Positions 1-29,639 of a DNA stretch of 64,000 nt are shown piece by piece. This DNA comes from a bacterium (GTDB taxonomy: Bacteria > Pseudomonadota > Alphaproteobacteria > Rs-D84): NCBI GenBank assembly GCA_014803525.1, contig JAAVBP010000004.1, positions 121,369-185,368 on the forward strand, read 5' to 3'. Both the position numbers and the translations under genes were made by a program. Position 1 is the first letter of the stretch. Each line of letters begins with the position of its first letter. A model generated the notes under the pieces. It saw only the letters and a program-made list of their open reading frames with translations. It was not told the origin of the DNA and did no database searches.

Positions 1-184
1 CATACGTGGCAATATCGCGGCGCGATTTGGACTGCGTTCGACAATCATCTTTTCGACTGTCCGCACGGCGCGGCGACTGGGCAAAAATATCAGCATGCGC
101 GCAATGTCCGCGTTACCATCCGCCATCATCACCTGCCACAGCGCGTCCAACATACGCGCCGGATTTGATACACAAAAGATATTG

Positions 185-739
185 TTATTTAATGCCAATT
201 ATCGCCCTGATGGGGTCCAGCCCCGTTTTCTTTTCCGCCGATGTTTCGATGATTTCCGGCGCCATCGCACCGTGTTCGTTATGGTCCAGTTTTATCTGCT
301 TGTCCTCGCGCACGCGTTTGTCTTTTTTTGTATACACGATCTGATACGCAATCGCATTTGCATCACAGAAATCCATCAAATCCAAATCAGAATCACGCGG
401 CCCGATACGTGAATCGATCAGGATAAACAGTCTGCGCAATTGCCGCCGGGATAATAAATATTCTTCCAAACGCGCCAGCCACCGCATCGCGTCTGTTTTG
501 GATACCTTGGCATAGCCATACCCGGGCAGGTCTGCAATAATCACACGATCATCAATGTTAAATAAATTTAAAGACTGTGTACGGCCCGGTGTGTTTGATG
601 TGCGGGCCACCGGCGCGCCCACCACCGCATTAATCAACGATGATTTTCCAACATTACTGCGCCCGATAAATGCGTATTCCGCAAATGCGGTGTTCGGCAA
701 CGATTTCACTGTTTCAAATGATCCCATAAATTTAATCAT
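185..739 (-). CDS. engB: Ribosome-biogenesis GTP-binding protein EngB/YihA
   Basis: G1 motif GRSNVGKSSLINA, G3 DLPGYG, G4 TKKDK; start taken at MIKFMGSF, which overlaps the rsmI stop by 8 bp. The longer ORF 185..844 is rejected as an upstream extension. Confidence 0.8.
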   Translation of the reverse strand: MIKFMGSFETVKSLPNTAFAEYAFIGRSNVGKSSLINAVVGAPVARTSNTPGRTQSLNLFNIDDRVIIADLPGYGYAKVSKTDAMRWLARLEEYLLSRRQLRRLFILIDSRIGPRDSDLDLMDFCDANAIAYQIVYTKKDKRVREDKQIKLDHNEHGAMAPEIIETSAEKKTGLDPIRAIIGIK

Positions 740-1529
740 TATTATTTGCCTCCACCAGGCGACGATACGCCTCTTTCTTGGATATTCCCGCACGGGCCGC
801 CAGGTCAGCTGCGGCCGATTTTGTTGACGTTGCCACAACATCATTTACGATTTCTGAAATCTCGGCATCTGTCATTTTATGTTCGGGCGCCGGCGCGACA
901 ACAATTACTATTTCACCACGCGGCGGCGTGATATTCATCAATTCCGCCGGATATCCGATAATCGTTTCTTCATAGATTTTTGTTATCTCGCGCACGATGG
1001 CAATCTTGCGTTCCGGCATCACACGGGCCAACACACCAATTGTCGCCATAATACGATTTGGACTTTCGTAATAAATAATCGTATGGCGGATTTTATTGTC
1101 TGCCGCTACCCTCTTTTCATCAAAGAAACCGCAGAACGTAAACCGGTCTGTCGGAAATCCCGATAATACCAATGCCGATATCGCCGCCGTCGGGCCCGGC
1201 ACCATAAAGACCGGCACACCCGCCGCGCGCGCCGCACGCACCAATCGAAATCCCGGATCCGACACCCCCGGCATGCCGGCATCGGACACGGCGGCAATTG
1301 TCGTGCCCCCGATTAGTTTTTCAATCAATTCCGGCACAACATCACGTTCATTGTGATCGTGCATGGCACGTGCCGGCGTCTTTATATCAAAATGCGATGC
1401 CAATTTCCCAAACACGCGTGTGTCTTCGGCCGCGACCAAGTCCACAGACTTCAATACATCCACCGCGCGCGGCGACATATCCGATAAATTTCCAATTGGT
1501 GTTCCAACAATATAAAGCCCTGATTGCAT
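732..1529 (-). CDS. rsmI: 16S rRNA (cytidine1402-2'-O)-methyltransferase RsmI (tetrapyrrole-methylase fold)
   Basis: N-terminal LYIVGTPIGNLSD...AAEDTR and GxSDPG motifs typical of RsmI; RBS AAGGA precedes the ATG; divergent from an lpoA-like gene as in E. coli. Confidence 0.8.
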   Translation of the reverse strand: MQSGLYIVGTPIGNLSDMSPRAVDVLKSVDLVAAEDTRVFGKLASHFDIKTPARAMHDHNERDVVPELIEKLIGGTTIAAVSDAGMPGVSDPGFRLVRAARAAGVPVFMVPGPTAAISALVLSGFPTDRFTFCGFFDEKRVAADNKIRHTIIYYESPNRIMATIGVLARVMPERKIAIVREITKIYEETIIGYPAELMNITPPRGEIVIVVAPAPEHKMTDAEISEIVNDVVATSTKSAAADLAARAGISKKEAYRRLVEANNND

Positions 1530-1565
1530 TCATCATCCTTTTGTAGTAAAATGATACAGAATAAA

Positions 1566-3161
1566 ATGGATTTTTCAATGCATATGAATAAATTTTTGGC
1601 TTTTCTTGGCCTGACAGGCACTTTGGCGGGATGTAATGGCACGATGACACCACGCGACACATGGCATTCAGAATACGGGTCACTTAGCACCGGGACGCCG
1701 ACCACAATGATGTATGGCACGCCCGCCACGGATGATGCATCACATAAAATGTCGGTGTTATTACCACTTAGTGGTGAAAACGCGGCAACAGGCCGGGCCC
1801 TGCGCACCGCGATTGAGGCCGCCGTTATCCAACGCGCACCAAACAGCCTTAGTGTGACATTCCATGACACCGCCGTCGGTGCATCCACGGCGATAAATAC
1901 GGCATTATCCGAAAATCCAGATGTTATTGTCGGCCCACTGTTTGCGGCGGATGCGCGTACATTACGCGCAATGAAGCCAAATGATATGCCCGCAATATCA
2001 TTTACATCAGACGCCAGCGCACTTGGCAATGGCGTTATGACAATGGCCCTGATGCCGTCAAACGGGGTTGAGGCAATTGTTCGCGAAATGGCCACCGACG
2101 GGTCAACAGGTATGCTGATATTGGCGCCAGAATCAAATACCGGGCGCCTGATGGCGGCGGCGGCACGCGCCGCGGCAACAAACAACGACATTCCGGTATC
2201 AGGCGTTGTTTTTTATCACGAACGTGACACAGAATCGATTAAAAATGCGGCCAATGCGGCAGCACTGTACCCGGCACGCAGCGCCGCAAACAAGCGCGCG
2301 CGCGAAATACTGGCCGACGTATTGAATACAGAACAGTTGACCGCAATTGAAAAATCATCCCTGTCACGCCAACTGGATAATATATCAAGAACAGAAACAC
2401 TGGGGCATCTGCCGTATAATGCCGTGTTATTCTTAGGCAGCGCAGATGATGCAAAATCATTGGCATCATTTCTGCGATACTATGGCGTATCCGCACGTGA
2501 CGCACGTTTTTATGGAACAGCCATGTGGGACGGCGCATTTACCAGTTCTGATATAACAATGTCTGGGGCGAAATATCCCGCATTGTCAGAAACCAATCCC
2601 GCATTCGTAAACCTGTATGAACAAACCACGGGCACCACACCAAACCGCATTGCATCGTTTGGCTATGACGCCGCAAATATGGCAATGGGAACAATATATT
2701 CCAGAAAATCCAATGCGGCATACCTGATGGACCCCAGTGGTTATGTCGGTATTGACGGCCTGGTTCGCCTAACCCCCAGCGGGGCCAGCCAGCGCGCCCT
2801 GCGCATAATGCAAATTTCCGGAAACGGCGCAATCGCAATGCGTGCGGCACCCGATAACTTTATCACCCAGATTTACAGCATTGATCCGGCAAAGCTTGCC
2901 CCGGCACGCCCAATGACGGTGGAAACCCCGGGAATAAATCCATTGTCATACATCCAGATTCCAGACCGCGTACGTGGCAAATACAAATCAAAAACATATG
3001 GTGCAAATGCAACCCAATCCACAACCACGCACCAGGAAAATATTATCGCCATCATACCCGAAGATGATGAGGAAACGGTTGTATCAAACCCGGAATTTCA
3101 ACCAAAACCACTTGAAACGGTCAGTCGCACATACATCGACAGCGTTGAAATAAACGAATAA
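1566..3161 (+). CDS. LppC/LpoA-family periplasmic lipoprotein (PBP-activator-like, periplasmic-binding-protein fold)
   Basis: Lipoprotein signal LAFLGLTGTLAGC; length about 530 aa; divergently placed next to rsmI, the conserved position of lpoA (yraM). Start codon uncertain (1524, 1566 or 1578). Confidence 0.5.
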   Translation: MDFSMHMNKFLAFLGLTGTLAGCNGTMTPRDTWHSEYGSLSTGTPTTMMYGTPATDDASHKMSVLLPLSGENAATGRALRTAIEAAVIQRAPNSLSVTFHDTAVGASTAINTALSENPDVIVGPLFAADARTLRAMKPNDMPAISFTSDASALGNGVMTMALMPSNGVEAIVREMATDGSTGMLILAPESNTGRLMAAAARAAATNNDIPVSGVVFYHERDTESIKNAANAAALYPARSAANKRAREILADVLNTEQLTAIEKSSLSRQLDNISRTETLGHLPYNAVLFLGSADDAKSLASFLRYYGVSARDARFYGTAMWDGAFTSSDITMSGAKYPALSETNPAFVNLYEQTTGTTPNRIASFGYDAANMAMGTIYSRKSNAAYLMDPSGYVGIDGLVRLTPSGASQRALRIMQISGNGAIAMRAAPDNFITQIYSIDPAKLAPARPMTVETPGINPLSYIQIPDRVRGKYKSKTYGANATQSTTTHQENIIAIIPEDDEETVVSNPEFQPKPLETVSRTYIDSVEINE

Positions 3162-3163
3162 AA

Positions 3164-3189
3164 GAAACGGGGCTATGCCCCGTTTCTTA
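3164..3189. terminator. Bidirectional rho-independent terminator between convergent genes
   Basis: Hairpin AAACGGGGC-TAT-GCCCCGTTT flanked by A/T runs. Confidence 0.6.
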
Positions 3190-4212
3190 TTTCATATTTA
3201 TTTCAAAAAACTCTTCAATCTTATCAAACGGAATCACATCCATATTGTCGTATAAATCAACATGATTTGCGCCCGGGATAATTACCAGTTCTTTGTTATC
3301 CCCTTTTAGCTTTTTAAACGCATCTTCACTGAAATAACGACTGTGCGCGTTTTCCCCATGCAGCATTAAAACAGGGCTGCGAATCTCACCGATGTATGTC
3401 AACAATGGCATATTCATAAACGGCAGATTTGACGTCACACGCCAACCATCGTTTGATGCAACCGAACGCTTATGATAACCACGCGGCGTTTTATAATATG
3501 CCCAATAATCTTTCATAAATTGAGGAGCATCATCATCCACCTTGTCCGGCAAACCGCCCGCGAACGCAGGCGTCCCGTTTTTAGCATCCGCTGTACGTTG
3601 CGCATTCATGGCCACGCGCGCCGCATAACGGGCATCAGCGTTATTATCCGCATCAAAGTATCCGTTGGCGTTAACACGCGACATATCATACATGGTCGAT
3701 GTCACAACCGCACGAATACGCGGATCATTTGCCGCCGCATTCAATCCCATTCCGCCAAATCCACAAATTCCAATAATTCCGATTTTGTTTTCATCAACAT
3801 CGCTACGGGTTGTTAAATAATCAACCGCCGCAGAAAAATCTTCGGTATTGATATCAGGCGACGCAACATTACGCGGCGTGCCCCCGGAATCACCCGTATA
3901 AGATGCATCAAACGCCAATGCCACAAAACCACGCGATGCCATTTCCTGTGCATATCGACCGGACACCTGCTCTTTGACCGCACCAAACGGGCCGGACACT
4001 GCAATTGCCGGCAATGGTTCGACACCGCGATTTTTCGGCATATACAGGTCACCAGCCAATTCTATACCATAACGATTTTTAAAATGAACACGCGTCACAC
4101 TGACATCTGGATTTTTGGCAAATGTTTTGTCCCATGCGCGCCCGCGCCAAATAAACACCGCCGCCACAATGACAATCAATGCAACAGCAATAACTGATAT
4201 TGTTTTTATCAT
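3187..4212 (-). CDS. Dienelactone-hydrolase-family alpha/beta hydrolase, membrane anchored
   Basis: N-terminal TM helix; nucleophile-elbow-like GICGFGG (Cys nucleophile as in DLH family); downstream His in ...PGANHVD; RBS AAAAAGGAGAAAG. Confidence 0.55.
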   Translation of the reverse strand: MIKTISVIAVALIVIVAAVFIWRGRAWDKTFAKNPDVSVTRVHFKNRYGIELAGDLYMPKNRGVEPLPAIAVSGPFGAVKEQVSGRYAQEMASRGFVALAFDASYTGDSGGTPRNVASPDINTEDFSAAVDYLTTRSDVDENKIGIIGICGFGGMGLNAAANDPRIRAVVTSTMYDMSRVNANGYFDADNNADARYAARVAMNAQRTADAKNGTPAFAGGLPDKVDDDAPQFMKDYWAYYKTPRGYHKRSVASNDGWRVTSNLPFMNMPLLTYIGEIRSPVLMLHGENAHSRYFSEDAFKKLKGDNKELVIIPGANHVDLYDNMDVIPFDKIEEFFEINMK

Positions 4213-4347
4213 ACTTTCTCCTTTTTATGGAACATAATATAAACCATAGAGCTAACTCCAACACAAGTTATTTTTTATAACAGAATCCATTCCTGTATTT
4301 TGCAACGAAAAATTATGGCACCATAGGCATATAAAAGGAGACATCAC

Positions 4348-4647
4348 ATGCCATCATTCGGTGATATAAATACGGTATACAATCCAACAAAAAAATTAAA
4401 CAAAGAAGAGATCATTCGCGCCCTGCAATTCGGCATTGCATCAGAATACGAAACTATACAGATATATCAGCAAATCATGGCCAGCACAGATAATGATGCA
4501 GTAAAAACAGTACTGACCGATTTAACAAACGACGAAATGCACCATGCGGGCGCACTGTTGAAATTGATTCATATATTGGCGCCGGACGTTGCCGCCCAAT
4601 ATGAGCACGGCGCAGATAAAGTTCTAACGGAACTGGGGATAAAATAA
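4348..4647 (+). CDS. Small ferritin-like / rubrerythrin-like protein (possible EncFtn-like)
   Basis: 99 aa; E-x-x-E and E-x-x-H (NDEMHH) carboxylate/His spacing typical of small diiron ferritin-like proteins; RBS AAAAGGAG. Confidence 0.35.
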   Translation: MPSFGDINTVYNPTKKLNKEEIIRALQFGIASEYETIQIYQQIMASTDNDAVKTVLTDLTNDEMHHAGALLKLIHILAPDVAAQYEHGADKVLTELGIK

Positions 4648-4654
4648 ATAAAAA

Positions 4655-4730
4655 ACGCCGGTAAAACCGGCATTTTTCATTTCTGGTGGGAGTGGGTGAA
4701 CAATTTTCTAGCCATTGACTTCCCTAAAGC
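4655..4730. repeat. Terminator hairpin fused to a tRNA-Tyr 3'-end fragment (copy 1)
   Basis: AACGCCGGTAAAACCGGCATTTT hairpin followed by TGGTGGGAGTGG.. and AACAATTTTCTAGC; about 85% identical to the copy at 5708-5790; TGGTGGGAGTGG matches the 3' acceptor end of the tRNA-Tyr at 19036. Confidence 0.6.
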
Positions 4731-4732
4731 TC

Positions 4733-5113
4733 TTACCGAGAAATTTGACGTAAATATTCGCTTCTAATATTATCTATTCTGTTATGCAGTTTTTTCTCCG
4801 CATTCAGCATTCTTTGAGCAAACACCAACGCAGCAATAAATTGAGCCCCAAGAAACGCAAAATACCAATAACTATCGCTAACATCTCGTGTTTCACAACA
4901 TTTTGCCATAGTATATATCCCAGCCGCAAGATTGACTACCAGGTCACCCGCAAAAACAAATCCCCACGGCTTAACCGGAATTGTCGCACGACTATACAAT
5001 TTACGCAGTTCTTTATCTTGTTCCGGTGTCAGTTTCAGACCAGACACCACATCATCATATTTCTGGGCAATAAAATTTTTCTCAAAATTAGTTTGCTGTT
5101 TTTTATTTTGCAT
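4733..5113 (-). CDS. Hypothetical small membrane protein
   Basis: 126 aa ORF with a hydrophobic stretch (FVFAGDLVVNLAAGIY... FLGAQFIAALVFA) and an RBS; lies between the two terminator/tRNA-fragment modules. Confidence 0.4.
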   Translation of the reverse strand: MQNKKQQTNFEKNFIAQKYDDVVSGLKLTPEQDKELRKLYSRATIPVKPWGFVFAGDLVVNLAAGIYTMAKCCETRDVSDSYWYFAFLGAQFIAALVFAQRMLNAEKKLHNRIDNIRSEYLRQISR

Positions 5114-5204
5114 ACTTTTTTCCCTTTATATCAAGAAACAGAGTACACCAACCGTCATACATGTCAAACAAAAAAACATGACACTAAGTTCCCCTCATGC
5201 AAGA

Positions 5205-5705
5205 GATGTGTCGCAATATGGTGGCTGATTCCCTAGGCGCCACGCGCCTGTGGGGCACTCGTTAGCACTCAAACTTCGCCCTGCTCGTTTTCGTTTACTC
5301 GTAGTCGAACCTGCGACATACATCGCATGGTTCAAATCCAAAAGACACAACCGACCGTGGCTGGATTCGCTCGGACTGACATCCTGCGCGGCAGTCGTAT
5401 CGTTTGCTATCGCAAACTCCCAATCGCTAACGCTCTTGGACTCCTTGTCGAACCAGCTGTTTGCGTTCCGCAAACTTCACCGCTGCCTCTCATCTGCCCA
5501 TCCCAAACCAAAACAAAAACCGACCATTCGGTCGGTTTGTGTTTTGGTGGGAGTGGCTGATTCCCTCGCCCGTCGCACTTTGTGCGCCGCGGCTGTGGGG
5601 CACTTGTACGGCGCGAACGGCGCATACGCTTGTTCTTGCCGACAGCGTAGTCGAACCTGTGACATACGTCACATGACTCAAATCCAAAAGCCACGACCGA
5701 CAGAA
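5205..5705. repeat. Two degenerate tandem units of about 330 bp carrying tRNA-Tyr 3'-end-like fragments
   Basis: Unit 1 at about 5218-5545 and unit 2 at about 5555-5705 share GTGGCTGATTCCCT...CTGTGGGGCACT...GTAGTCGAACCTG[C/T]GACATAC...CAAATCCAAAAG; fragments GTGGCTGGATTCG at 5380 and TGGTGGGAGTGGCTG at 5546 match the 19036-19060 tRNA-Tyr 3' end. The overlapping small ORFs are judged spurious. Confidence 0.55.
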
Positions 5706-5707
5706 AT

Positions 5708-5790
5708 AAAAACGCCGGTTAAACCGGCATTTTTATTTCTGGTGGGAGTCAATGAACAATTTTCTAGCTACGGATTTCCTTGGATTCCTT
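5708..5790. repeat. Terminator hairpin fused to a tRNA-Tyr 3'-end fragment (copy 2); candidate distal att of the island
   Basis: AACGCCGGTTAAACCGGCATTTTTATTTCTGGTGGGAGTcaATGAACAATTTTCTAGC; direct repeat of the tRNA-Tyr 3' end lying 13.3 kb from the intact tRNA. Confidence 0.55.
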
Positions 5791-5864
5791 AGCATTGGAC
5801 ACGATATAAAACAATTTAAGCAGATAATATCCATACAAAACACAAAATAAAAACACTATCAGCT

Positions 5865-6770
5865 TCACATTTGTTCTTTAGTACCCACAGGGACTCTCTT
5901 TGTTATTTCACAAAAACTATTATCCAGATATTCAATATTATTATCAATTTTCACAAAACAGCCCTTCTCTACTTTTCTAACCAACATATAACACGTATCT
6001 GCTTTACAAACCAGTGTATTTGAAGTATTTATATCGCCTCTTGATTTGGAAAATCCTGCCATAAAAATAAAAATTATAACCCATAAACACTTTGAGATAT
6101 TTTTTACCGATATATTTGGAACAAAGGAATCAAAAAGTAAAAATGCAAAAAACATAGCTACAAATATTACAGTCGTCCAAAAACCACATGTCATTCGCTC
6201 TATAATAATTGCTGACACTAAAAGAGCTAATACCAACAACATCACAAAAACTATCAAAAGGTAATTTAATAGAGCATTCATAACACCTTTCTTTATTGCA
6301 CACTTCACTTTCAATATAGCAGTCGAAAGTTTTTCTTGTTTCTTTAAAAGCCCCTTCATTCCTCTACAACATTTTCCTGAACCAAATAGCTTTTTGGTAT
6401 GTGATGATATTTTATATGTCTTATAGCAAGCCTCAATAAACTTTGGCAAAACCCTTATTATATCAATTAGCCTACGTGTTGTATTCTTAAAATCTTTTAC
6501 AGCAGCAACAATAATATTATCATTGTTAATTGGTATAAAGGGGAATAAGAAACCAATAAGATAAGCCAACTCAAGGAACATACCCGGCATAGTACCTGCA
6601 TAATAGTCACCAACTGTAAGGAATTCAATGTATTGAACGTTAATAAATCTGAAATACCCCAAATTGAACCATACAGCAACTAAAATCAATATACCAATCA
6701 ACGTTAAATAATATTGCTGAATCCATTTTAGAGAAAACACTTCTGTTTTATCATTTGATTTTTTAGACAT
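5865..6770 (-). CDS. Hypothetical polytopic membrane protein (very AT-rich, island cargo)
   Basis: Multiple hydrophobic helices; start chosen at MSKKSND with RBS AAGGGG; Lys/Ile/Asn-rich composition atypical of the flanking core. Confidence 0.5.
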   Translation of the reverse strand: MSKKSNDKTEVFSLKWIQQYYLTLIGILILVAVWFNLGYFRFINVQYIEFLTVGDYYAGTMPGMFLELAYLIGFLFPFIPINNDNIIVAAVKDFKNTTRRLIDIIRVLPKFIEACYKTYKISSHTKKLFGSGKCCRGMKGLLKKQEKLSTAILKVKCAIKKGVMNALLNYLLIVFVMLLVLALLVSAIIIERMTCGFWTTVIFVAMFFAFLLFDSFVPNISVKNISKCLWVIIFIFMAGFSKSRGDINTSNTLVCKADTCYMLVRKVEKGCFVKIDNNIEYLDNSFCEITKRVPVGTKEQM

Positions 6771-7021
6771 TTGATTACCCCTTATGTGCATAATATATAA
6801 AAAATGATACGCATACATTCCTTATTGTCAACCTCCCCCTAGGCCCAACACCCGACATCATAGAACCGAGCATAGTAAAGACGCCCCCCTAAACCTACTG
6901 CCCCAAAAGGCAATATGTCACAGATTTACTGATACAAGGTTGTAATGGATAGGCCTTTACGCGCGAAGCCAATCCGTCACCACCGCAAATTTCAATAGGA
7001 ATACTTTTTTAACGCTTTTTG

Positions 7022-7049
7022 TTGACATCAGTTGTTTTGATGATAGAAT
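7022..7049 (+). promoter_or_regulatory. Sigma70-like promoter (TTGACA-N16-TAGAAT) oriented toward the alpA-like and MTase genes
   Basis: Near-consensus -35 TTGACA at 7022 and -10 TAGAAT at 7044 with a 16-nt spacer. Confidence 0.45.
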
Positions 7050-7251
7050 GATAAACATCAAAATAATTGAAAGATATCTATCTAACTCAATTATTTATCT
7101 AAATTGCGAATAGCTTTTATCAACATCGCAATTTAATTTATGAATTTCTTAAATTTTTAAATTTACTGATACTCTCTCTGTTCTGGACAGGGCTTTTTTT
7201 ACACTTTTTTACTTAAAACTACAAATTTCCAACCAATCAACCAACCAAGAA

Positions 7252-7430
7252 AAACGGGCATTTTTTGCCCTTTTTTCATACACAAAAAAGGAGATATGCC
7301 ATGCAAAAAATCCATTCACCGCCATTATTTATCCTTTTTATTTAAATTTTAACTAACCAATTTTTCTCAATCAACCAAGGGTCGTGCTTTTGCACGGCCC
7401 TTTTTTCATACCTAAAAGGACACATTATGG
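7252..7430 (+). repeat. Duplicated hairpin-plus-leader module (GC hairpin, TTTTTTCATAC, AAAAGGAG, ATG)
   Basis: 7252-7310 GGGCATTTTTTGCCCTTTTTTCATACACAAAAAAGGAGATATGCCATG and 7375-7430 GGGTCGTGCTTTTGCACGGCCCTTTTTTCATACCTAAAAGGACACATTATG; the second copy drives the 84-aa ORF. Confidence 0.4.
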
Positions 7431-7681
7431 CAACATTTACTATTAAACCCGCAACATCTACAACCCCAAAACAAGTTATCATAATCGGAGCAGAAGATAT
7501 GTTATCGCCTTCGGAAGTAGTGCGTATCGTTGGCGTATCTCTCAAAACATTACGCAAATGGCGGGAACTTCGTATCAATCTGGCTTTTTGCGAATGCGAC
7601 CGCTCCGCAAAATATCCGGCAAGCGCAATAAATGAATATCTGGCAGCGACATTTTGTTCGGTAATAATCAAAAAAGCATAA
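7427..7681 (+). CDS. AlpA/Xis-family HTH protein (putative excisionase or regulator)
   Basis: MLSPSEVVRIVGVSLKTLRKWRE resembles the AlpA/MerR-type HTH_17 excisionase motif; located in the island. Confidence 0.45.
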   Translation: MATFTIKPATSTTPKQVIIIGAEDMLSPSEVVRIVGVSLKTLRKWRELRINLAFCECDRSAKYPASAINEYLAATFCSVIIKKA

Positions 7682-8011
7682 TAAGAGCAGAAAAAATAAA
7701 GGGCAAGACCCTATTTTTTTATTTTCGGGGCACGAAATCCCCCAAAGTTCACAAAGTCCACAAAGTAAACCAAATCCCACACCACATTGCAAATCTAGTC
7801 AGTTATTATTTCTACGACGCGAAACAAAGGAGACGCAAACAAATGAATAGCAGTTAAACAACAAACCAATACAGCACAACGACTAATCAGTCTATGCGCT
7901 GATAAAACAAGAAATTTTAACCGTAAAACTCTCAGCTTGCAATCGCGGAATGCGATTCCTGTACGGGGATTTTTACACCTAAAAAGTCCAAAAATAACAA
8001 AGGAGAAAACA

Positions 8012-26143: not shown

Positions 26144-26524
26144 ATGAGAATGAAATTCATTATTCCAATATTACTGCTTGGCGCATGTGCATCCGTGAAT
26201 CGGGGCAGTATTGATAACGCCACAATACTGAATTGGGAAAATGAATCCGTCACGACCGAACAATTTGTTCGCGATCACAAGGCATGCCTGGGGATAACAA
26301 AACCATCTTATATGCCGCGGTCACGCCTGGCCAAACTGATTGCCCCGAACCAAAGCGGCATGATGCCGGATTGGGACGGCCTGTGGGTAACATTTCAATC
26401 AAATGAATACAAAGACGTGGGCCAGCGCAGTTTGATGTCCGTCCCACGCAACACAACGTCCAAGTCTGTTGGATATTATCGCAAATGCATGTTCCGTCGC
26501 GGATATTTGTTGCGTGCGATGTAA
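26144..26524 (+). CDS. Hypothetical lipoprotein
   Basis: Lipoprotein signal IIPILLLGAC; 126 aa. Confidence 0.45.
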   Translation: MRMKFIIPILLLGACASVNRGSIDNATILNWENESVTTEQFVRDHKACLGITKPSYMPRSRLAKLIAPNQSGMMPDWDGLWVTFQSNEYKDVGQRSLMSVPRNTTSKSVGYYRKCMFRRGYLLRAM

Positions 26525-26576
26525 TTTTTTCTGTTGGCCCTTTTTTATCGGATAAAAATATGCTATAATTGATGCC

Positions 26577-27257
26577 ATGAAACGTTCATTCTGGTTTTGG
26601 CTGTGTTTTGTGGTGTCAATAATTCTGGCCACTTATTTTTCAGTGCGAATAATAATGACGGCACTGGGGCACGGAAATGTGGCCCACGTACATAATATAT
26701 CCATATCGGCTGATATGCGCGGACCGGAATTGGGCGCGGTGGCGGCGGCCGCGGCGGTGGCCCCGGGTGCACATTCATATTCGGTTGATTTGGATACATT
26801 GGCCGCACGCGTGTCCGACACCCCCGGCGTGCGCATGGCCGCCGTACGCCGCATGCCAAACGGTAATATTTCCGTACGCGTAAAAATGTATCGCGCCGTG
26901 GCCCAGTGGACCGATGGCGATGCGTTTTATCCACTGTCGGCGGATGGGACAATTGTGCGCCGCCCATCAGACGCACGCGATCCGGCATCTGTATTATTCC
27001 GTGGCGCACTGCCCGATGATATTTCCGAAATAACCGATGCCGCCCGCAATATGACGCGTTACATAAACTATCTGGAATGGATTGAAAATCGCCGATGGAA
27101 CATAATAACAACGGACGATATAAAAATAATGCTGCCCGAAGATAATCCGACCGCGGCGATTGCAACACTGATGATGCTGCAAAAGAAACACGATATATTA
27201 TCCCGCGACATTCACGTTATTGACATGCGCGACGATGCAAGAATATTGGTAAAATAA
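26577..27257 (+). CDS. ftsQ: Cell division protein FtsQ (POTRA-containing)
   Basis: N-terminal TM, periplasmic POTRA/FtsQ-like domain; immediately upstream of an ftsA-like gene in the conserved order. Confidence 0.6.
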   Translation: MKRSFWFWLCFVVSIILATYFSVRIIMTALGHGNVAHVHNISISADMRGPELGAVAAAAAVAPGAHSYSVDLDTLAARVSDTPGVRMAAVRRMPNGNISVRVKMYRAVAQWTDGDAFYPLSADGTIVRRPSDARDPASVLFRGALPDDISEITDAARNMTRYINYLEWIENRRWNIITTDDIKIMLPEDNPTAAIATLMMLQKKHDILSRDIHVIDMRDDARILVK

Positions 27258-27260
27258 CAA

Positions 27261-29039
27261 ATGAATCTGTTTGATTCTTCTTTCTTGTGTTTGGATATCG
27301 GCCGATCCGGCGTTCGCGGCGCGGCCCATCGCGTACGCAGTGCGCGCATTGATAAATCCGCCGTTTATTCTTTTGACAGCACAGACACCGTGTATGCATT
27401 AAAGTCTGTGATTGACGAATTGGAAAAACAAATCGGGGCGCATTTTGATACAGCATATGTAACCGGTGATTTTGGACCGGCCGAATTCAATATGACGGTA
27501 AAAAGTATCAATTGGGGCGCGGAACATAAAATCAGCACCGCCGACGTACGCAATCTGATATCCCAGATAACACCGCCAACCGGCATGTTTCCAATGCATA
27601 TAATTCCGCTACGTTACGACACACCGACGGCCCGAAACATTTTATCCCCAATCGGACATACAGACAACGCACTGGTATCCGCATTCAGCGCAATATTTTA
27701 CGACCAACCCAGAATGGACGAAATTATGTCCGACATGCGGCGCGCCCATATCCAGTCGTCGGGATTCTTTGACCCGCAATTTTTATTAAGTGCAACACTG
27801 CGCCGACCGCACGAAAACATAATGTTCATAGACTTGGCCGAAAGATTTACAACCGCATCCATATGGACAGACCGCGGTCCCGTTATGTTCAAGCAAATTC
27901 CGGTTGGCGGCGAAAAAATAACACGCGATATCGCAGAAAAAATGCATATAGATATAACGGCGGCAAACAGCATAAAACGTGCAGTTTCAACATTGATTCC
28001 GATGGAAATGGACCGATTTACCCCGGCCGATCCGGCATATGATTTTTCACGTGCGGATATAAACGAAATTATTTTACCGCGCATGCTGGAAATCGCCGCA
28101 CAAATAAAAGACGCCGCAACAACGGCGATCGGAAAATACAGACCGGTAAAAATAATGCTGACCGGGGGCGGCGCAGAAATAGATGGCGCAACAGACTTTT
28201 TTGAAAACATCTTTGCAATTCCAACAACAAAATTACCGTATGACGCAACGGCACGGGCGTTGGCGGCGTATGTATGGAAACTGCAATCACCACGCGTTGC
28301 CGCCGCACACGCCCGCCAAGAACGATGGGCACGTCGCACAAATTGGATTCGGCGCCGGTTTAATATAAAACGACGTCCACGCGCACGCTTTATCCCCATT
28401 ATGCCCAGTACATTATGCTTTGACATGCGACGCGATGACACATATTCACTGTTTAAATCCGGCGGCATATCAATGATTCATGTAGATATAATGGATGGTT
28501 TTTACGTTGACCGTGTCGCCGGCAGTATCGCCGAATTAAAACAAATTCGCGCACATACGGACGCACATCTGCACGTGCATTTAATGACGGAAAGTCCATC
28601 CGTTTGGGCCGCCGACGCAATTGCCGCCGGCGCAGATACCGTGATCGTATCAACCAATACATCCGGCCTGCGCGCGGCCCTGCGCGAGATTCGGGCGGCC
28701 GGTCGCCGATGCGGCGTGGCATTGAACCCGGATTCCGATGTATCAATATTAAAACCAATTTTGCGCGATGTTGATGAAATAATGGTTATGTCGGTTACCC
28801 CCGGTGCGGCGGGACAAAAATTTGATACCGACGCATTAAAGAAAATCGCAATACTGGACGCGACACGTAAAAAATATGGATTAAAGTATAAAATCACTGT
28901 TGATGGCGGAATAAATGCCGACACATCGAACCCATGCTGGACCGCAGGCGCGGACGCATTGGTGTCTGGATCATATCTGGCGCGCGCATCTGATTTTCCA
29001 TTGGCGGTACAAAGCCTGTTGCGGCACCCGGAAAAATAA
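27261..29039 (+). CDS. ftsA: FtsA-like actin-fold protein fused in-frame to ribulose-phosphate 3-epimerase (Rpe)
   Basis: N-terminal 370 aa: FtsA-like (LCLDIGRSGVR..., IMLTGGGAEIDGATDFFENIFAIP). C-terminal 215 aa: Rpe motifs (PSTLCFD...IHVDIMDGFYV, HLHVHLMTE, MVMSVTPG, VDGGIN). No stop codon between the two parts. Confidence 0.6.
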   Translation: MNLFDSSFLCLDIGRSGVRGAAHRVRSARIDKSAVYSFDSTDTVYALKSVIDELEKQIGAHFDTAYVTGDFGPAEFNMTVKSINWGAEHKISTADVRNLISQITPPTGMFPMHIIPLRYDTPTARNILSPIGHTDNALVSAFSAIFYDQPRMDEIMSDMRRAHIQSSGFFDPQFLLSATLRRPHENIMFIDLAERFTTASIWTDRGPVMFKQIPVGGEKITRDIAEKMHIDITAANSIKRAVSTLIPMEMDRFTPADPAYDFSRADINEIILPRMLEIAAQIKDAATTAIGKYRPVKIMLTGGGAEIDGATDFFENIFAIPTTKLPYDATARALAAYVWKLQSPRVAAAHARQERWARRTNWIRRRFNIKRRPRARFIPIMPSTLCFDMRRDDTYSLFKSGGISMIHVDIMDGFYVDRVAGSIAELKQIRAHTDAHLHVHLMTESPSVWAADAIAAGADTVIVSTNTSGLRAALREIRAAGRRCGVALNPDSDVSILKPILRDVDEIMVMSVTPGAAGQKFDTDALKKIAILDATRKKYGLKYKITVDGGINADTSNPCWTAGADALVSGSYLARASDFPLAVQSLLRHPEK

Positions 29040-29225
29040 AATCACACAATATCAAGAAAACCGGCATACGCCGGTTTTCTGTTTTTGCAAGCACATACTT
29101 GTTTTTATTAGGTCCAGGTTATTTAACCGTGAATCTGCAGGGATATGGTTCGGGGCCTGTTGAAAAGCCCATAAGCAGTGTCTGCATAAATATTATGCAC
29201 TATTAACACAAAAGAATAAAGGGGC

Positions 29226-29639
29226 TTATTTTCCCATATTTCCCATTATTACAACCCGGCGTCCGTCACCATGCGCGGTTATATATATATTGATTGTATC
29301 CGCCGGCAAAAATTCCGCCGCAATATCTGGCCATTCAATTAATGTAATGTCGTTGGCAATTGCATGCTGTAACCCGATTTCGGCCAATTCATCACTATCC
29401 TCTATCCGATACAGGTCAAAGTGTGATATCCCATCATAATTTTGCACAATTGTAAATGTCGGACTGGGGACAACAGTGTCCGCACCACGCAAAGTTTTTA
29501 TAATCGCGCGCGCAATTTCAGATTTTCCCATTCCCAAATCACCATGCAGTGCAATTGTCGCCGGCGCATGTAATTTCCGTGCGAAATCTGCCGCCCAACC
29601 GCGCAATTCATTAACATTATTTGAGATAAATTCTGTCAT
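29226..29639 (-). CDS. tsaE: tRNA threonylcarbamoyladenosine biosynthesis protein TsaE (YjeE)
   Basis: ALHGDLGMGKSEIARAII Walker-A-like motif and size (137 aa) typical of TsaE. Confidence 0.75.
   Translation of the reverse strand: MTEFISNNVNELRGWAADFARKLHAPATIALHGDLGMGKSEIARAIIKTLRGADTVVPSPTFTIVQNYDGISHFDLYRIEDSDELAEIGLQHAIANDITLIEWPDIAAEFLPADTINIYITAHGDGRRVVIMGNMGK

What the first reader, a model, noticed from the sequence alone, without database searches (positions are those of the whole stretch)
4655..5790. Array of decayed tRNA-Tyr 3'-end copies fused to terminator hairpins, left of an island
The 12-15-mer TGGTGGGAGTGG(CTG) is the complement of the 3' acceptor/CCA end of the tRNA-Tyr at 19036. 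It recurs at 4686, 5546 and 5741 (the last partial), and the fragments GGTGGCTGATTCC / GTGGCTGGATTCG occur at 5221 and 5380. Two of the copies are each preceded by a near-identical terminator hairpin (AACGCCGG[T]TAAACCGGCATTTT). Between them lie two degenerate tandem units of about 330 bp. This looks like scars of repeated integration and excision at one tRNA attachment site, with each element bringing its own terminator-plus-att module.
Basis: seen in the sequence. Interest (0 to 1): 0.5.

Follow-up and report, generated by a model that had tools for sequence, protein, structure and literature searches.

The report
tRNA-Tyr island scars and tRNA-linked repeats
This stretch is the far edge of foreign DNA inserted at the end of a tyrosine tRNA gene, and between the insertion scars sit three copies of a conserved, folded, tRNA-end-mimicking RNA-like module that related gut bacteria carry behind several other tRNA genes and that no RNA database lists.

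Summary
The repeats are real. TGGTGGGAGTGG occurs exactly at 4684, 5545 and 19036 (0.01 expected), with a 10/12 copy at 5740. Related genomes have an empty site: the terminator abuts tRNA-Tyr directly, so window 4696-19035 is inserted DNA. Another relative carries a different 1.1 kb insert at the same core. The 13.3 kb island (5750-19035) ends in a large serine recombinase whose ORF reads into the tRNA. Homologues do the same at tRNA-Tyr, Asn and Gln.

The GC-rich interior (5219-5702) is not decay. It holds three copies of a 140-160 nt unit also found behind tRNA-Pro, Ser, Met (in this window, 38067-38222) and Gln in related Alphaproteobacteria. Each unit ends in about 19 nt of its own tRNA's 3' end. 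Its 5' strand is complementary to that end. Covariation supports four helices: 97% of cells paired, against 27-41% when the partners are slid. The closest known analogue is the E. coli tRNA-linked repeats, with no sequence homology and no Rfam match. Function is inferred: a read-through RNA and/or a reiterated attB landing pad.

The parts
4646..4683 (.). Native bidirectional terminator hairpin. It is the outer arm of the tRNA-Tyr attB and the end of the EncFtn-like gene (4348-4647).
   Evidence: Called as a terminator on both strands. In the empty-site relatives the same hairpin directly abuts the tRNA-Tyr 3' end.
4684..4695 (-). Core copy 1 (CCACTCCCACCA on the minus strand). It is the outermost attL of the whole insertion.
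   Evidence: Exact 12-mer. Homology to L002 stops at 4698.
4696..5218 (-). Remnant cassette. It carries the half-site TGAACAAT at 4697-4704 and a 126-aa gene with no family match at 4733-5113 (minus strand). No recombinase and no inner half-site are present.
   Evidence: TGGTGGGAGT-NNN-YGAACAAT at 4684-4704. No Pfam hit. Found only in contigs identical to the window.
5219..5356 (-). Unit A. A tRNA-linked-repeat-like unit whose 3' end is GAAUCAGCCACCA, a tRNA-Tyr end with 6 nt lost.
   Evidence: Covariance model hit 5213-5356, 51.3 bits, E 4e-11. nhmmer to L030 gives E 2e-12.
5357..5506 (-). Unit B. A divergent unit that keeps both halves of the tRNA-Tyr T arm (AGCUGGUUCGA ... CGAAUCCAGCCAC) about 78 nt apart. 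It has no CCA end and no following hairpin.
   Evidence: Repeat families D4 and D5. Not recovered by model R1, and only weak nhmmer hits.
5507..5544 (.). Hairpin/terminator between units C and B.
   Evidence: Inverted repeat I3. Called as a terminator on both strands.
5545..5702 (-). Unit C. The complete unit. Its last 19 nt equal the last 20 nt of tRNA-Tyr minus one C, and its 5' strand GGUCGUGGCU pairs with AGCCAC..CC.
   Evidence: Model hit, 44.8 bits, E 2e-9..
5702..5739 (.). Hairpin that is 96% identical to the native terminator. It is the attB outer arm as it stood before the island came in.
   Evidence: Repeat D6 and inverted repeat I2. Terminator call.
5740..5760 (+). attL of the 13.3 kb island: core TGGTGGGAGT + CAA + half-site TGAACAAT.
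   Evidence: The same left-end sequence is present in the L004 insert.
5750..19035 (.). 13.3 kb integrated island. It carries a C5 methylase, an RCR Rep-like gene, a 1207-aa surface protein, a resolvase and a large serine recombinase.
   Evidence: Absent from syntenic relatives. Pfam hits. The same gene set occurs at tRNA-Gln in L048.
17485..19203 (+). Large serine recombinase. From residue 517 on, its ORF is the antisense of tRNA-Tyr and tRNA-Gly.
   Evidence: Pfam Resolvase + Recombinase + Zn_ribbon_recom..
19026..19047 (+). attR: half-site TTGTTCA + ATG + core, which is the start of the tRNA-Tyr 3' end.
   Evidence: Joining it to 5740-5760 gives ATTGTTCA-atg-TGGTGGGAGT-caa-TGAACAAT, an inverted-repeat attP.
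19036..19122 (-). tRNA-Tyr(GTA), the integration target.
   Evidence: ARAGORN and Rfam.
38067..38222 (-). Related 'type 2' unit behind tRNA-Met (38255-38331). It ends in the last 15 nt of tRNA-Met. A decayed second copy lies at 37901-38036.

Best explanation
Two layers are superimposed in this region.

Layer 1: attachment-site scars (mostly shown).
- The 3' end of tRNA-Tyr is the attB of a family of large serine recombinases.
- A 13.3 kb island (5750-19035) integrated there. The copies at 5740 and 19036 are its attL and attR cores, flanked by the inverted half-sites TGAACAAT and ATTGTTCA.
- The copy at 4684 is the attL of an older, now gutted element, of which the 126-aa cassette at 4696-5218 remains.

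Layer 2: tRNA-linked units (identity shown, function inferred).
- Before those insertions, tRNA-Tyr was followed by hairpin, unit C, hairpin, unit B, unit A, hairpin.
- These are three copies of a roughly 150-nt tRNA-linked unit on the tRNA's strand.
- Each unit folds into a multi-helix structure. Its closing stem is made from a copy of the neighbouring tRNA's T-loop-to-CCA segment and a complementary 5' strand, so it imitates the acceptor end of that tRNA.

Inferred steps.
- The units are transcribed by read-through of the tRNA's terminator and trimmed like a tRNA, as described for E. coli tRNA-linked repeats.
- At the DNA level, each 'unit 3' end + hairpin' is a second copy of attB. This lets elements stack in tandem without disrupting the tRNA. 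The older cassette appears to have used unit A's copy.
- What the RNA itself does is unknown.
For: Insertion polymorphism:
- The exact 12-mer occurs 3 times against 0.01 expected.
- Empty sites occur in syntenic relatives (74-94% nt identity, both flanks aligned), and a different insert sits at the same core in others.

Recombinase:
- A large serine recombinase sits at the tRNA-proximal end of the island.
- Homologues at 89%, 52% and 47% identity all read into the antisense 3' end of tRNA-Tyr, Asn and Gln respectively.
- The half-site motifs occur only at the junctions, with 0 expected by chance.

Units as a conserved family:
- A pattern scan and a covariance model recover units in more than 12 loci from other Alphaproteobacteria MAGs. 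Each lies directly downstream of a tRNA and a hairpin, in the same orientation.
- The last roughly 19 nt match the local tRNA, including species-specific variants, for Pro, Ser, Met, Tyr and Gln.

Structure:
- On the model-fitted alignment, 97% of cells are paired against 27-41% when slid. 14 of 35 pairs carry double changes, and 0 of 500 shuffles reach the observed values.
- P3 has three Watson-Crick states, P4 has seven different stems, and P2 has four variants.
- RNAalifold on a plain MAFFT alignment also finds P1 and a 9-bp stem with four G.U pairs. That stem is valid only on the tRNA-sense strand.
- P1 alone, on an unfitted alignment: 96.7% of cells paired against 37-51% when slid.

Independent parallel:
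- L048 has tRNA-Gln, a recombinase island, a hairpin, then a Gln-type unit (34.8 bits, E 5e-7).

Known analogue:
- E. coli tRNA-linked repeats share 18-19 nt with the 3' end of the upstream tRNA or rRNA and lie between two terminators (PMC8144298).
Against: - No expression data exist. Transcription, processing and any RNA function are inferred.
- Single units do not fold much better than shuffles (z -0.7 to -2.1). The z of -7.3 for the whole region probably owes much to the two long terminator hairpins, though this was not tested separately.
- Most Pro-type units are nearly identical over 97 nt. This could reflect recent horizontal spread rather than selection, and it means the covariation rests on few independent events.
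- The main covariation count used an alignment fitted to the model.
- Several Pro units have one mismatch in P1. The duplex-energy test for cognate specificity was not discriminating.
- Relatives with the empty site have no units at tRNA-Tyr, so the unit array is itself an acquired, variable feature.
- Unit B is not recovered by the model.
- No inner junction of the older cassette can be recognised.
Confidence: 0.58

Rival explanations
1. Pure scars. Every tRNA-Tyr-like fragment is the displaced or imported att copy of a separate integration event. The GC-rich DNA between them is decaying remnant sequence with no function.
For: - The site is demonstrably used repeatedly.
- Tandem elements separated by partial tRNAs, together with degraded remnants, are documented for tycheposons (bioRxiv 10.1101/2020.12.28.424599).
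- Pro-type units contain two partial tRNA-Pro-like stretches (tRNA 39-59 and 39-77). This suggests the family originally arose from tRNA fragments.
Against: - The same unit body is conserved in many species at other tRNAs, with compensatory changes in four helices.
- The unit always has the same orientation and position relative to a tRNA and a hairpin.
- Neutral remnants would not keep a 5' strand complementary to whichever tRNA end they carry.
Confidence: 0.12
2. DNA-level element only. Each 'hairpin + unit + tRNA 3' end' is a miniature non-autonomous integrative module, or a reiterated attB landing pad. It is kept or spread because recombinases act on it, and its hairpins are protein-binding or single-stranded-DNA features rather than RNA structure.
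For: - Cassettes and islands are joined exactly at unit 3' ends and cores in the window and in L025, L030, L037, L038, L017 and L016.
- The duplicated segment spans the tRNA end plus the hairpin, which is a full attB, at tRNA-Ser in L034 and in the window.
- Arrays differ between strains.
Against: - Four G.U pairs in an invariant 9-bp stem work only as RNA on the tRNA-sense strand.
- Serine-recombinase sites are about 40-50 bp (established knowledge), which does not explain conservation of a 150-nt multi-helix body.
- No recombinase lies within 8 kb of most tRNA-Pro units (and the loci).
Confidence: 0.2
3. The units are working tRNA-like or tmRNA-like molecules, or plain tRNA pseudogenes, that are charged or used by the translation or tRNA-surveillance machinery.
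For: - The closing stem imitates the acceptor stem, with a discriminator base and CCA.
- The 5' motif UUUGGAUUUGA recalls the tmRNA 5' motif GGAUUCGAC. This comparison is from memory.
- The model gives weak hits on the tRNA-Pro genes themselves (13-14 bits).
Against: - ARAGORN finds no tRNA or tmRNA there.
- Rfam tRNA and tmRNA models give nothing, even at E<=10.
- Read by eye, no frame in the units has a conserved tag-like ORF ending in a stop.
- The acceptor mimic carries a conserved 2x2 internal loop in the Tyr, Pro and Ser units.
- There is no anticodon arm.
Confidence: 0.06
4. The units are guide RNAs for a recombinase, like IS110 bridge RNA. They would carry target-identical and target-complementary segments that programme insertion at a given tRNA end.
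For: - Three segments of each unit change with tRNA identity on an otherwise homologous scaffold.
- Units co-occur with recombinase islands at tRNA-Tyr and tRNA-Gln.
Against: - No IS110-type DEDD recombinase is among the neighbouring genes that were scanned.
- Serine recombinases are not known to use RNA guides (established knowledge).
- The target-like segments pair with each other rather than lying in open loops.
- The half-sites flanking the core explain targeting by protein.
- Most units have no recombinase nearby.
Confidence: 0.03

Closest known systems
tRNA-linked repeats (TLRs) of Escherichia coli, including the tyrT-distal 178-bp repeats / RtT RNA (Rfam RF00391) and RrA/RrB/RrF behind 5S rRNA
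   Same: - They lie downstream of a stable-RNA gene in the same orientation.
- The last 18-19 nt are identical to the 3' end of that upstream gene.
- There are one to several copies per locus.
- They can sit between two terminators and be made by read-through.
- Their function is largely unknown (PMC8144298).
- The classic example is also at a tRNA-Tyr locus.
   Different: - There is no sequence or covariance-model similarity.
- The host is different: uncultured gut and rumen Alphaproteobacteria.
- Here one homologous body serves five tRNA identities, with a matching complementary 5' strand and covariation-supported helices.
- The unit ends double as junctions of recombinase islands and cassettes.
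- These last features were not compared in E. coli TLRs.
Genomic islands in tandem at tRNA genes (tycheposons of Prochlorococcus; islands catalogued in Islander)
   Same: - Site-specific integration at a tRNA 3' end.
- The island is flanked by a full and a partial tRNA.
- Successive integrations push older elements outward.
- Degraded remnants and integrase-less cargo modules occur.
- A minority use large serine recombinases (bioRxiv 10.1101/2020.12.28.424599; PMC4383910 abstract).
   Different: - Here the recombinase is a serine enzyme whose own ORF crosses the junction into the tRNA.
- The common core is only 10-12 bp, with inverted half-sites.
- The inner 'partial tRNAs' are structured conserved units rather than simple displaced fragments.
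Large serine integrases with a short common core (phiRv1, Bxb1 type)
   Same: - Domain set Resolvase + Recombinase + zinc ribbon.
- An attP built as an imperfect inverted repeat around a short core shared with attB.
- Core lengths of 8-12 bp for Bxb1 and phiRv1 are recalled from memory.
   Different: - The target is the extreme 3' end of tRNA genes, and subfamilies are specific for Tyr, Asn or Gln.
- No recombination directionality factor was identified.
- Activity is untested.

Membership tests
Site-specific genomic island at a tRNA gene | The inserted segment is absent from the same locus in related genomes | tested here: met
   L002, L003, L007 and L009 have the terminator directly next to tRNA-Tyr. 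Both flanks are syntenic.
Site-specific genomic island at a tRNA gene | Flanked by a direct repeat that is part of the tRNA 3' end | tested here: met
   10-12 nt cores at 4684, 5740 and 19036.
Site-specific genomic island at a tRNA gene | Recombinase gene at one end, with conserved linkage to the target | tested here: met
   The large serine recombinase at 17485-19203 abuts the tRNA. Homologues abut tRNA-Tyr, Asn and Gln.
Site-specific genomic island at a tRNA gene | Excision to a circle with an attP junction and a restored attB | not testable with these tools
   This needs raw reads or PCR. Only an in-silico attP with inverted half-sites could be reconstructed.
tRNA-linked repeats (E. coli TLR / RtT) | 18-19 nt at the unit's 3' end identical to the 3' end of the upstream tRNA | tested here: met
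   Unit C has 19 of the last 20 nt of tRNA-Tyr. The Pro, Ser and Gln units have 19-20 nt, and the Met unit has 15 nt.
tRNA-linked repeats (E. coli TLR / RtT) | Located immediately downstream of that tRNA in the same orientation | tested here: met
   True at the tRNA-Pro, Ser and Met loci. At tRNA-Tyr (window) and tRNA-Gln (L048) only the recombinase island intervenes.
tRNA-linked repeats (E. coli TLR / RtT) | Homology to the described family (Rfam RF00391 RtT) | tested here: not met
   There is no RtT hit at gathering score or at E<=10. The units are therefore an analogue of the E. coli family, not a member.
tRNA-linked repeats (E. coli TLR / RtT) | Transcribed with the upstream RNA and processed | not testable with these tools
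   No expression data are available. Terminator-like hairpins flank the units.
tRNA / tmRNA genes | Recognised by ARAGORN or by the Rfam tRNA or tmRNA models | tested here: not met
IS110-type bridge RNA | Adjacent DEDD (IS110) recombinase gene | tested here: not met
   Pfam on ten ORFs between 1524 and 19203 gives only serine recombinases.
Integron cassette array (attC sites) | IntI tyrosine recombinase and attC sites with RYYYAAC/GTTRRRY cores | tested here: inconclusive
   No tyrosine recombinase is among the ORFs scanned. Read by eye, the unit ends do not carry the attC consensus. The whole window was not screened for intI. A weak hit resembling sRNA-Xcc1, recalled as an integron-cassette RNA, lies at 37684-37774.

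The most novel reading that the evidence does not exclude
The units define an undescribed class of tRNA-linked structured RNAs in gut and rumen Alphaproteobacteria. They share a roughly 150-nt multi-helix scaffold whose acceptor-like closing stem is re-tailored to whichever tRNA gene lies upstream (Pro, Ser, Met, Tyr, Gln). They also act as modular, reiterated attachment sites, so that tRNA loci grow into cassette and island arrays without loss of the tRNA.
Probability: 0.35. Interest if true: 0.72.

Novelty: new variant of a known kind. Interest (0 to 1): 0.55.

Why it matters
The scar part is ordinary biology, but it comes with a useful detail. It reveals a family of large serine recombinases that target the extreme 3' end of different tRNA genes and whose own reading frame crosses the junction. 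These could be of interest as programmable-by-family integrases.

The unit part bears on an old loose end. tRNA-linked repeats have been known in E. coli since 1978 and have no accepted function or origin. Here an unrelated lineage shows the same principle in a clearer form:
- one conserved scaffold,
- ends that track the neighbouring tRNA,
- covariation-supported structure, and
- direct physical use of the unit ends as junctions of mobile DNA.

This makes two hypotheses testable: that the units are processed tRNA-mimic RNAs, and that they are spare attachment sites.

Tried and rejected
- **Rfam.** Searches at gathering score and at E<=10 over the units, the tRNA-Met locus and a tRNA-Pro locus gave only tRNAs and noise.
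- **tmRNA or two-piece tmRNA.** No ARAGORN or Rfam support, and no conserved tag frame when the frames are read by eye.
- **Protein coding.** The 180-aa ORF at 5250-5792, called as a gene in one metagenome, runs through terminators and repeats and is not credible.
- **Tandem Repeats Finder.** Nothing found.
- **Viral contig scans.** One chance hit inside a tail-fibre gene. No close relatives of the recombinase.
- **blastn against phages and plasmids.** No match.
- **Folding of single units.** Not clearly better than shuffles.
- **Duplex-energy matrix for cognate against non-cognate closing strands.** Not discriminating, because G-rich strands pair promiscuously.
- **Plain MAFFT alignment of whole units.** The 3' third was misaligned, so a trimmed alignment and a covariance-model alignment were used instead.
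- **Bridge-RNA, retron, group II intron and integron attC readings.** Considered and set aside. The partner enzymes are missing among the Pfam-scanned neighbours, and read by eye the unit ends lack the attC consensus.
- **Inner end of the 126-aa cassette.** It could not be found.
- **Literature searches.** Nothing describes these units.
Full report
**1. Checking the observation**

The window has tRNA-Tyr(GTA) at 19036-19122 and tRNA-Gly at 19147-19221, both on the minus strand.

The complement of the last 12 nt of tRNA-Tyr, TGGTGGGAGTGG, occurs exactly three times: at 4684, 5545 and 19036. Shuffles give 0.01 expected. A 10/12 copy lies at 5740. With two mismatches allowed the count is not significant (8 against 3.5), so only the exact copies carry weight.

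A local alignment of the tRNA against 4600-5800 gave:
- tRNA 68-87 at 5545-5563 with one C missing,
- tRNA 67-79 at 5357-5369,
- tRNA 59-69 at 5448-5458,
- tRNA 68-79 at 5221-5231.

The two hairpins at 4651-4677 and 5708-5734 are 96% identical and score as terminators.

The 'two 330-bp units' are really three units of 138-158 nt (A 5219-5356, B 5357-5506, C 5545-5702). A and C are the most alike. Tandem Repeats Finder sees nothing.

**2. The outer copies are attachment-site cores**

The EncFtn-like protein encoded at 4348-4647 occurs with an identical sequence on nine metagenome contigs.
- Two contigs are identical to the window here.
- Four (L002, L003, L007, L009) have the terminator followed at once by tRNA-Tyr and tRNA-Gly.
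- Three (L004, L005, L008) have a different 1.1 kb insert, carrying a 283/284-aa gene. In L004, which reaches both junctions, the insert is bounded by the same core.

L002 and L004 align with the window on both sides, at 38-4698 and 19022-29399. Identity is 74-81% over most long blocks (67-87% over all) and 94% next to the site. Window 4696-19035 is therefore inserted DNA relative to syntenic relatives.

The tRNA-proximal end of the insert encodes a resolvase (16497-17096) and a large serine recombinase (17485-19203; Resolvase, Recombinase and zinc-ribbon domains). From residue 517 on, the recombinase ORF is the antisense of the tRNA.

Homologues show this linkage is a family property:
- one at 89% identity lies against tRNA-Tyr in another contig,
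- one at 52% overlaps tRNA-Asn,
- one at 47% overlaps tRNA-Gln.

The junctions carry TGGTGGGAGT-NNN-YGAACAAT at 4684 and 5740, and also in the L004-type inserts. They carry TTGTTCA-NNN-TGGTGGGAGT at 19026. Neither pattern is expected by chance. Joined together they give an inverted-repeat attP, which is the usual design for serine integrases. The tRNA-Gln island in L048 has the same design with different half-sites (TTGCACAT / ATGTGCAA). That the recombinase made these junctions is an inference from this anatomy.

**3. The inner copies are something else**

A pattern taken from the best-conserved part of units A and C found true homologues in seven other Alphaproteobacteria MAGs (Candidatus Enterousia and unnamed gut or rumen lineages) and in five metagenome contigs, two of which (L034 and L035) carry the same sequence here.
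- In most of them the unit lies directly downstream of tRNA-Pro(TGG) and a long hairpin, on the same strand. In others it follows a cassette that ends in the same core.
- Its last roughly 19 nt equal the last 19-20 nt of that species' own tRNA-Pro, including species-specific variants.

A second, related unit type is found:
- behind tRNA-Met in this very window (38067-38222, ending in the last 15 nt of tRNA-Met),
- behind tRNA-Ser in L034,
- in tRNA-Pro arrays in L025, L016 and L017.

In L048 a Gln-type unit lies at the far end of a recombinase island inserted at tRNA-Gln. This is the same layout as in the window.

A covariance model built from four Pro units recovers window units A (51 bits, E 4e-11) and C (45 bits, E 2e-9), but not B.

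**4. Structure of the units**

Helices:
- **P1, the closing stem.** The 5' strand of every unit is complementary to the tRNA-derived 3' strand: GCGAAA/UUUCGC (Pro), GUGGCU/AGCCAC (Tyr), GAGAGGGA/UUCCUCUC (Met), GAUGAUG/CUUCGUC (Ser). In the Tyr, Pro and Ser units a 2x2 internal loop follows, then two or three more pairs and a short CCA-containing overhang. This is an acceptor-stem mimic.
- **P2.** The apical hairpin has four compensatory variants.
- **P3.** Three Watson-Crick states: CCC/GGG, CGC/GCG and GGC/GCC.
- **P4.** Seven unrelated stem sequences.

Statistical support:
- On the model-fitted alignment, 97% of cells pair against 27-41% when the partners are slid. 14 of 35 pairs have double changes, and no shuffle reaches the observed values. 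That alignment leans towards the structure.
- RNAalifold on a plain MAFFT alignment independently finds P1 and a 9-bp stem, UUGGAUUUG/CAGGUUCGA. Its four G.U pairs make sense only for RNA on the tRNA's strand.
- P1 on an unfitted trimmed alignment gives 96.7% of cells paired against 37-51% slid.

Weak points:
- Single units fold no better than shuffles.
- The Pro units are nearly identical over 97 nt, so independent events are few.
- Nothing shows that the units are expressed.

**5. Origin and history (inference)**

Pro-type units contain two stretches resembling tRNA-Pro 39-59 and 39-77. Unit B and the type-2 units keep the cognate T-stem 5' strand. The family is therefore tRNA-derived.

In units A and C, only the part from the T loop onward, together with the complementary 5' strand, is Tyr-specific. 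The rest is close to Pro-linked units (unit A against L030, E 2e-12). This points to re-tailoring of an existing scaffold by recombination in the universal T-loop sequence.

At tRNA-Ser (L034) and in the window, the segment 'tRNA 3' end + hairpin' is duplicated on both sides of the unit body.

The simplest history for the window is:
1. tRNA-Tyr, hairpin, C, hairpin, B, A, hairpin.
2. An element integrated at the attB copy formed by unit A's end. Only the 126-aa cassette and its outer junction at 4684 remain, and unit A's core has lost 6 nt.
3. The 13.3 kb island then integrated at the true attB.

In L025, L030, L037, L038, L017 and L016, small promoter-plus-gene cassettes ending in ...CACGACCA or ...CCCGACCA alternate with units behind tRNA-Pro. 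No relative of the window's two serine recombinases is detectable in these loci (tblastn). Unit ends thus serve as junctions more generally.

**6. Comparison with known systems**

The closest analogue is the E. coli tRNA-linked repeat family. It has 22 copies at ten loci, and each shares 18-19 nt with the 3' end of the upstream tRNA or rRNA. Some lie between two terminators and are made by read-through. Function is mostly unknown (PMC8144298). The units here meet the positional and 3'-end criteria but have no homology to RtT, so they are an analogue and not a member.

The island layer matches tRNA-targeted islands that accumulate in tandem, as described for tycheposons. The difference is a serine recombinase that reads into its target.

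**7. Verdict**

The region combines ordinary integration scars with a probably new, conserved tRNA-linked unit family. Its structure is supported, and its function is open: a read-through RNA, a spare attB, or both.

Noticed in passing
window 37901-38222 (minus strand), downstream of tRNA-Met 38255-38331: A second tRNA-linked unit locus in the same window. The order is tRNA-Met, long hairpin, a 'type 2' unit ending in CCUCUCCCGCUACCA (the tRNA-Met 3' end), another hairpin, then a decayed second unit.
   Followed up: partly
window 37684-37774 (minus strand): A weak hit to Rfam sRNA-Xcc1, which I recall as an integron-cassette sRNA. It scores 33 bits against a gathering score of 53, E about 5e-4, and has a good closing helix. 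It lies just beyond the tRNA-Met units. It may be chance or another cassette-borne RNA.
   Followed up: partly
window 17485-19203 (plus strand); L039-L049: The large serine recombinase ORF runs across the att junction, so its last 55 residues are antisense tRNA-Tyr and tRNA-Gly. Homologues likewise overlap tRNA-Tyr, tRNA-Asn and tRNA-Gln (for tRNA-Asn and tRNA-Gln the ORF ends inside the tRNA). Excision would therefore change the protein's C-terminus. In the tRNA-Gln homologue's loci (L043-L045, L048, L049) the recombinase gene follows a 199-aa resolvase and a 62-65-aa ORF; in the window a 199-aa resolvase likewise lies upstream.
   Followed up: partly
L025, L030, L037, L038, L017, L016 (tRNA-Pro loci): Small cassettes of about 1 kb, each a promoter plus one gene, alternate with units. 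Each ends in a conserved arm of about 70 nt (...TATAATCTCAGTTCGCAAACCGCC...CACGACCA). Each is preceded by a TTCGAA-rich promoter-like region that is conserved across species. tblastn finds no relative of the window's serine recombinases in these 8 kb loci.
   Followed up: partly
window 3183-4698 against L002/L004: The segment next to the attachment site, holding the hydrolase and EncFtn-like genes, is 94% identical to relatives whose other flanks are only 74-81% identical. The EncFtn-like protein is 100% identical across them. This suggests recent exchange of DNA adjacent to the att site.
   Followed up: no
window 19036-19122; L002; L039: tRNA-Tyr has a C4:U69 mismatch in its acceptor stem and a low Rfam score (39 bits). 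The same acceptor sequence is present in empty-site relatives, so the mismatch is native and not a by-product of integration.
   Followed up: partly
window 19123-19146: The spacer between tRNA-Gly and tRNA-Tyr is 24 nt here but 5 nt in L002 and its like. The extra roughly 19 nt is flanked by a short AGAT repeat.
   Followed up: no
L048 16674-17687: A reverse-transcriptase gene (RVT_1, 337 aa) lies a few kb beyond tRNA-Gln in the genome that carries the Gln-type unit. No link to the units was examined.
   Followed up: no
window 5865-6818 and 12686-16309 (minus strand): The island cargo includes a 317-aa protein with no family match directly inside attL.
   Followed up: no
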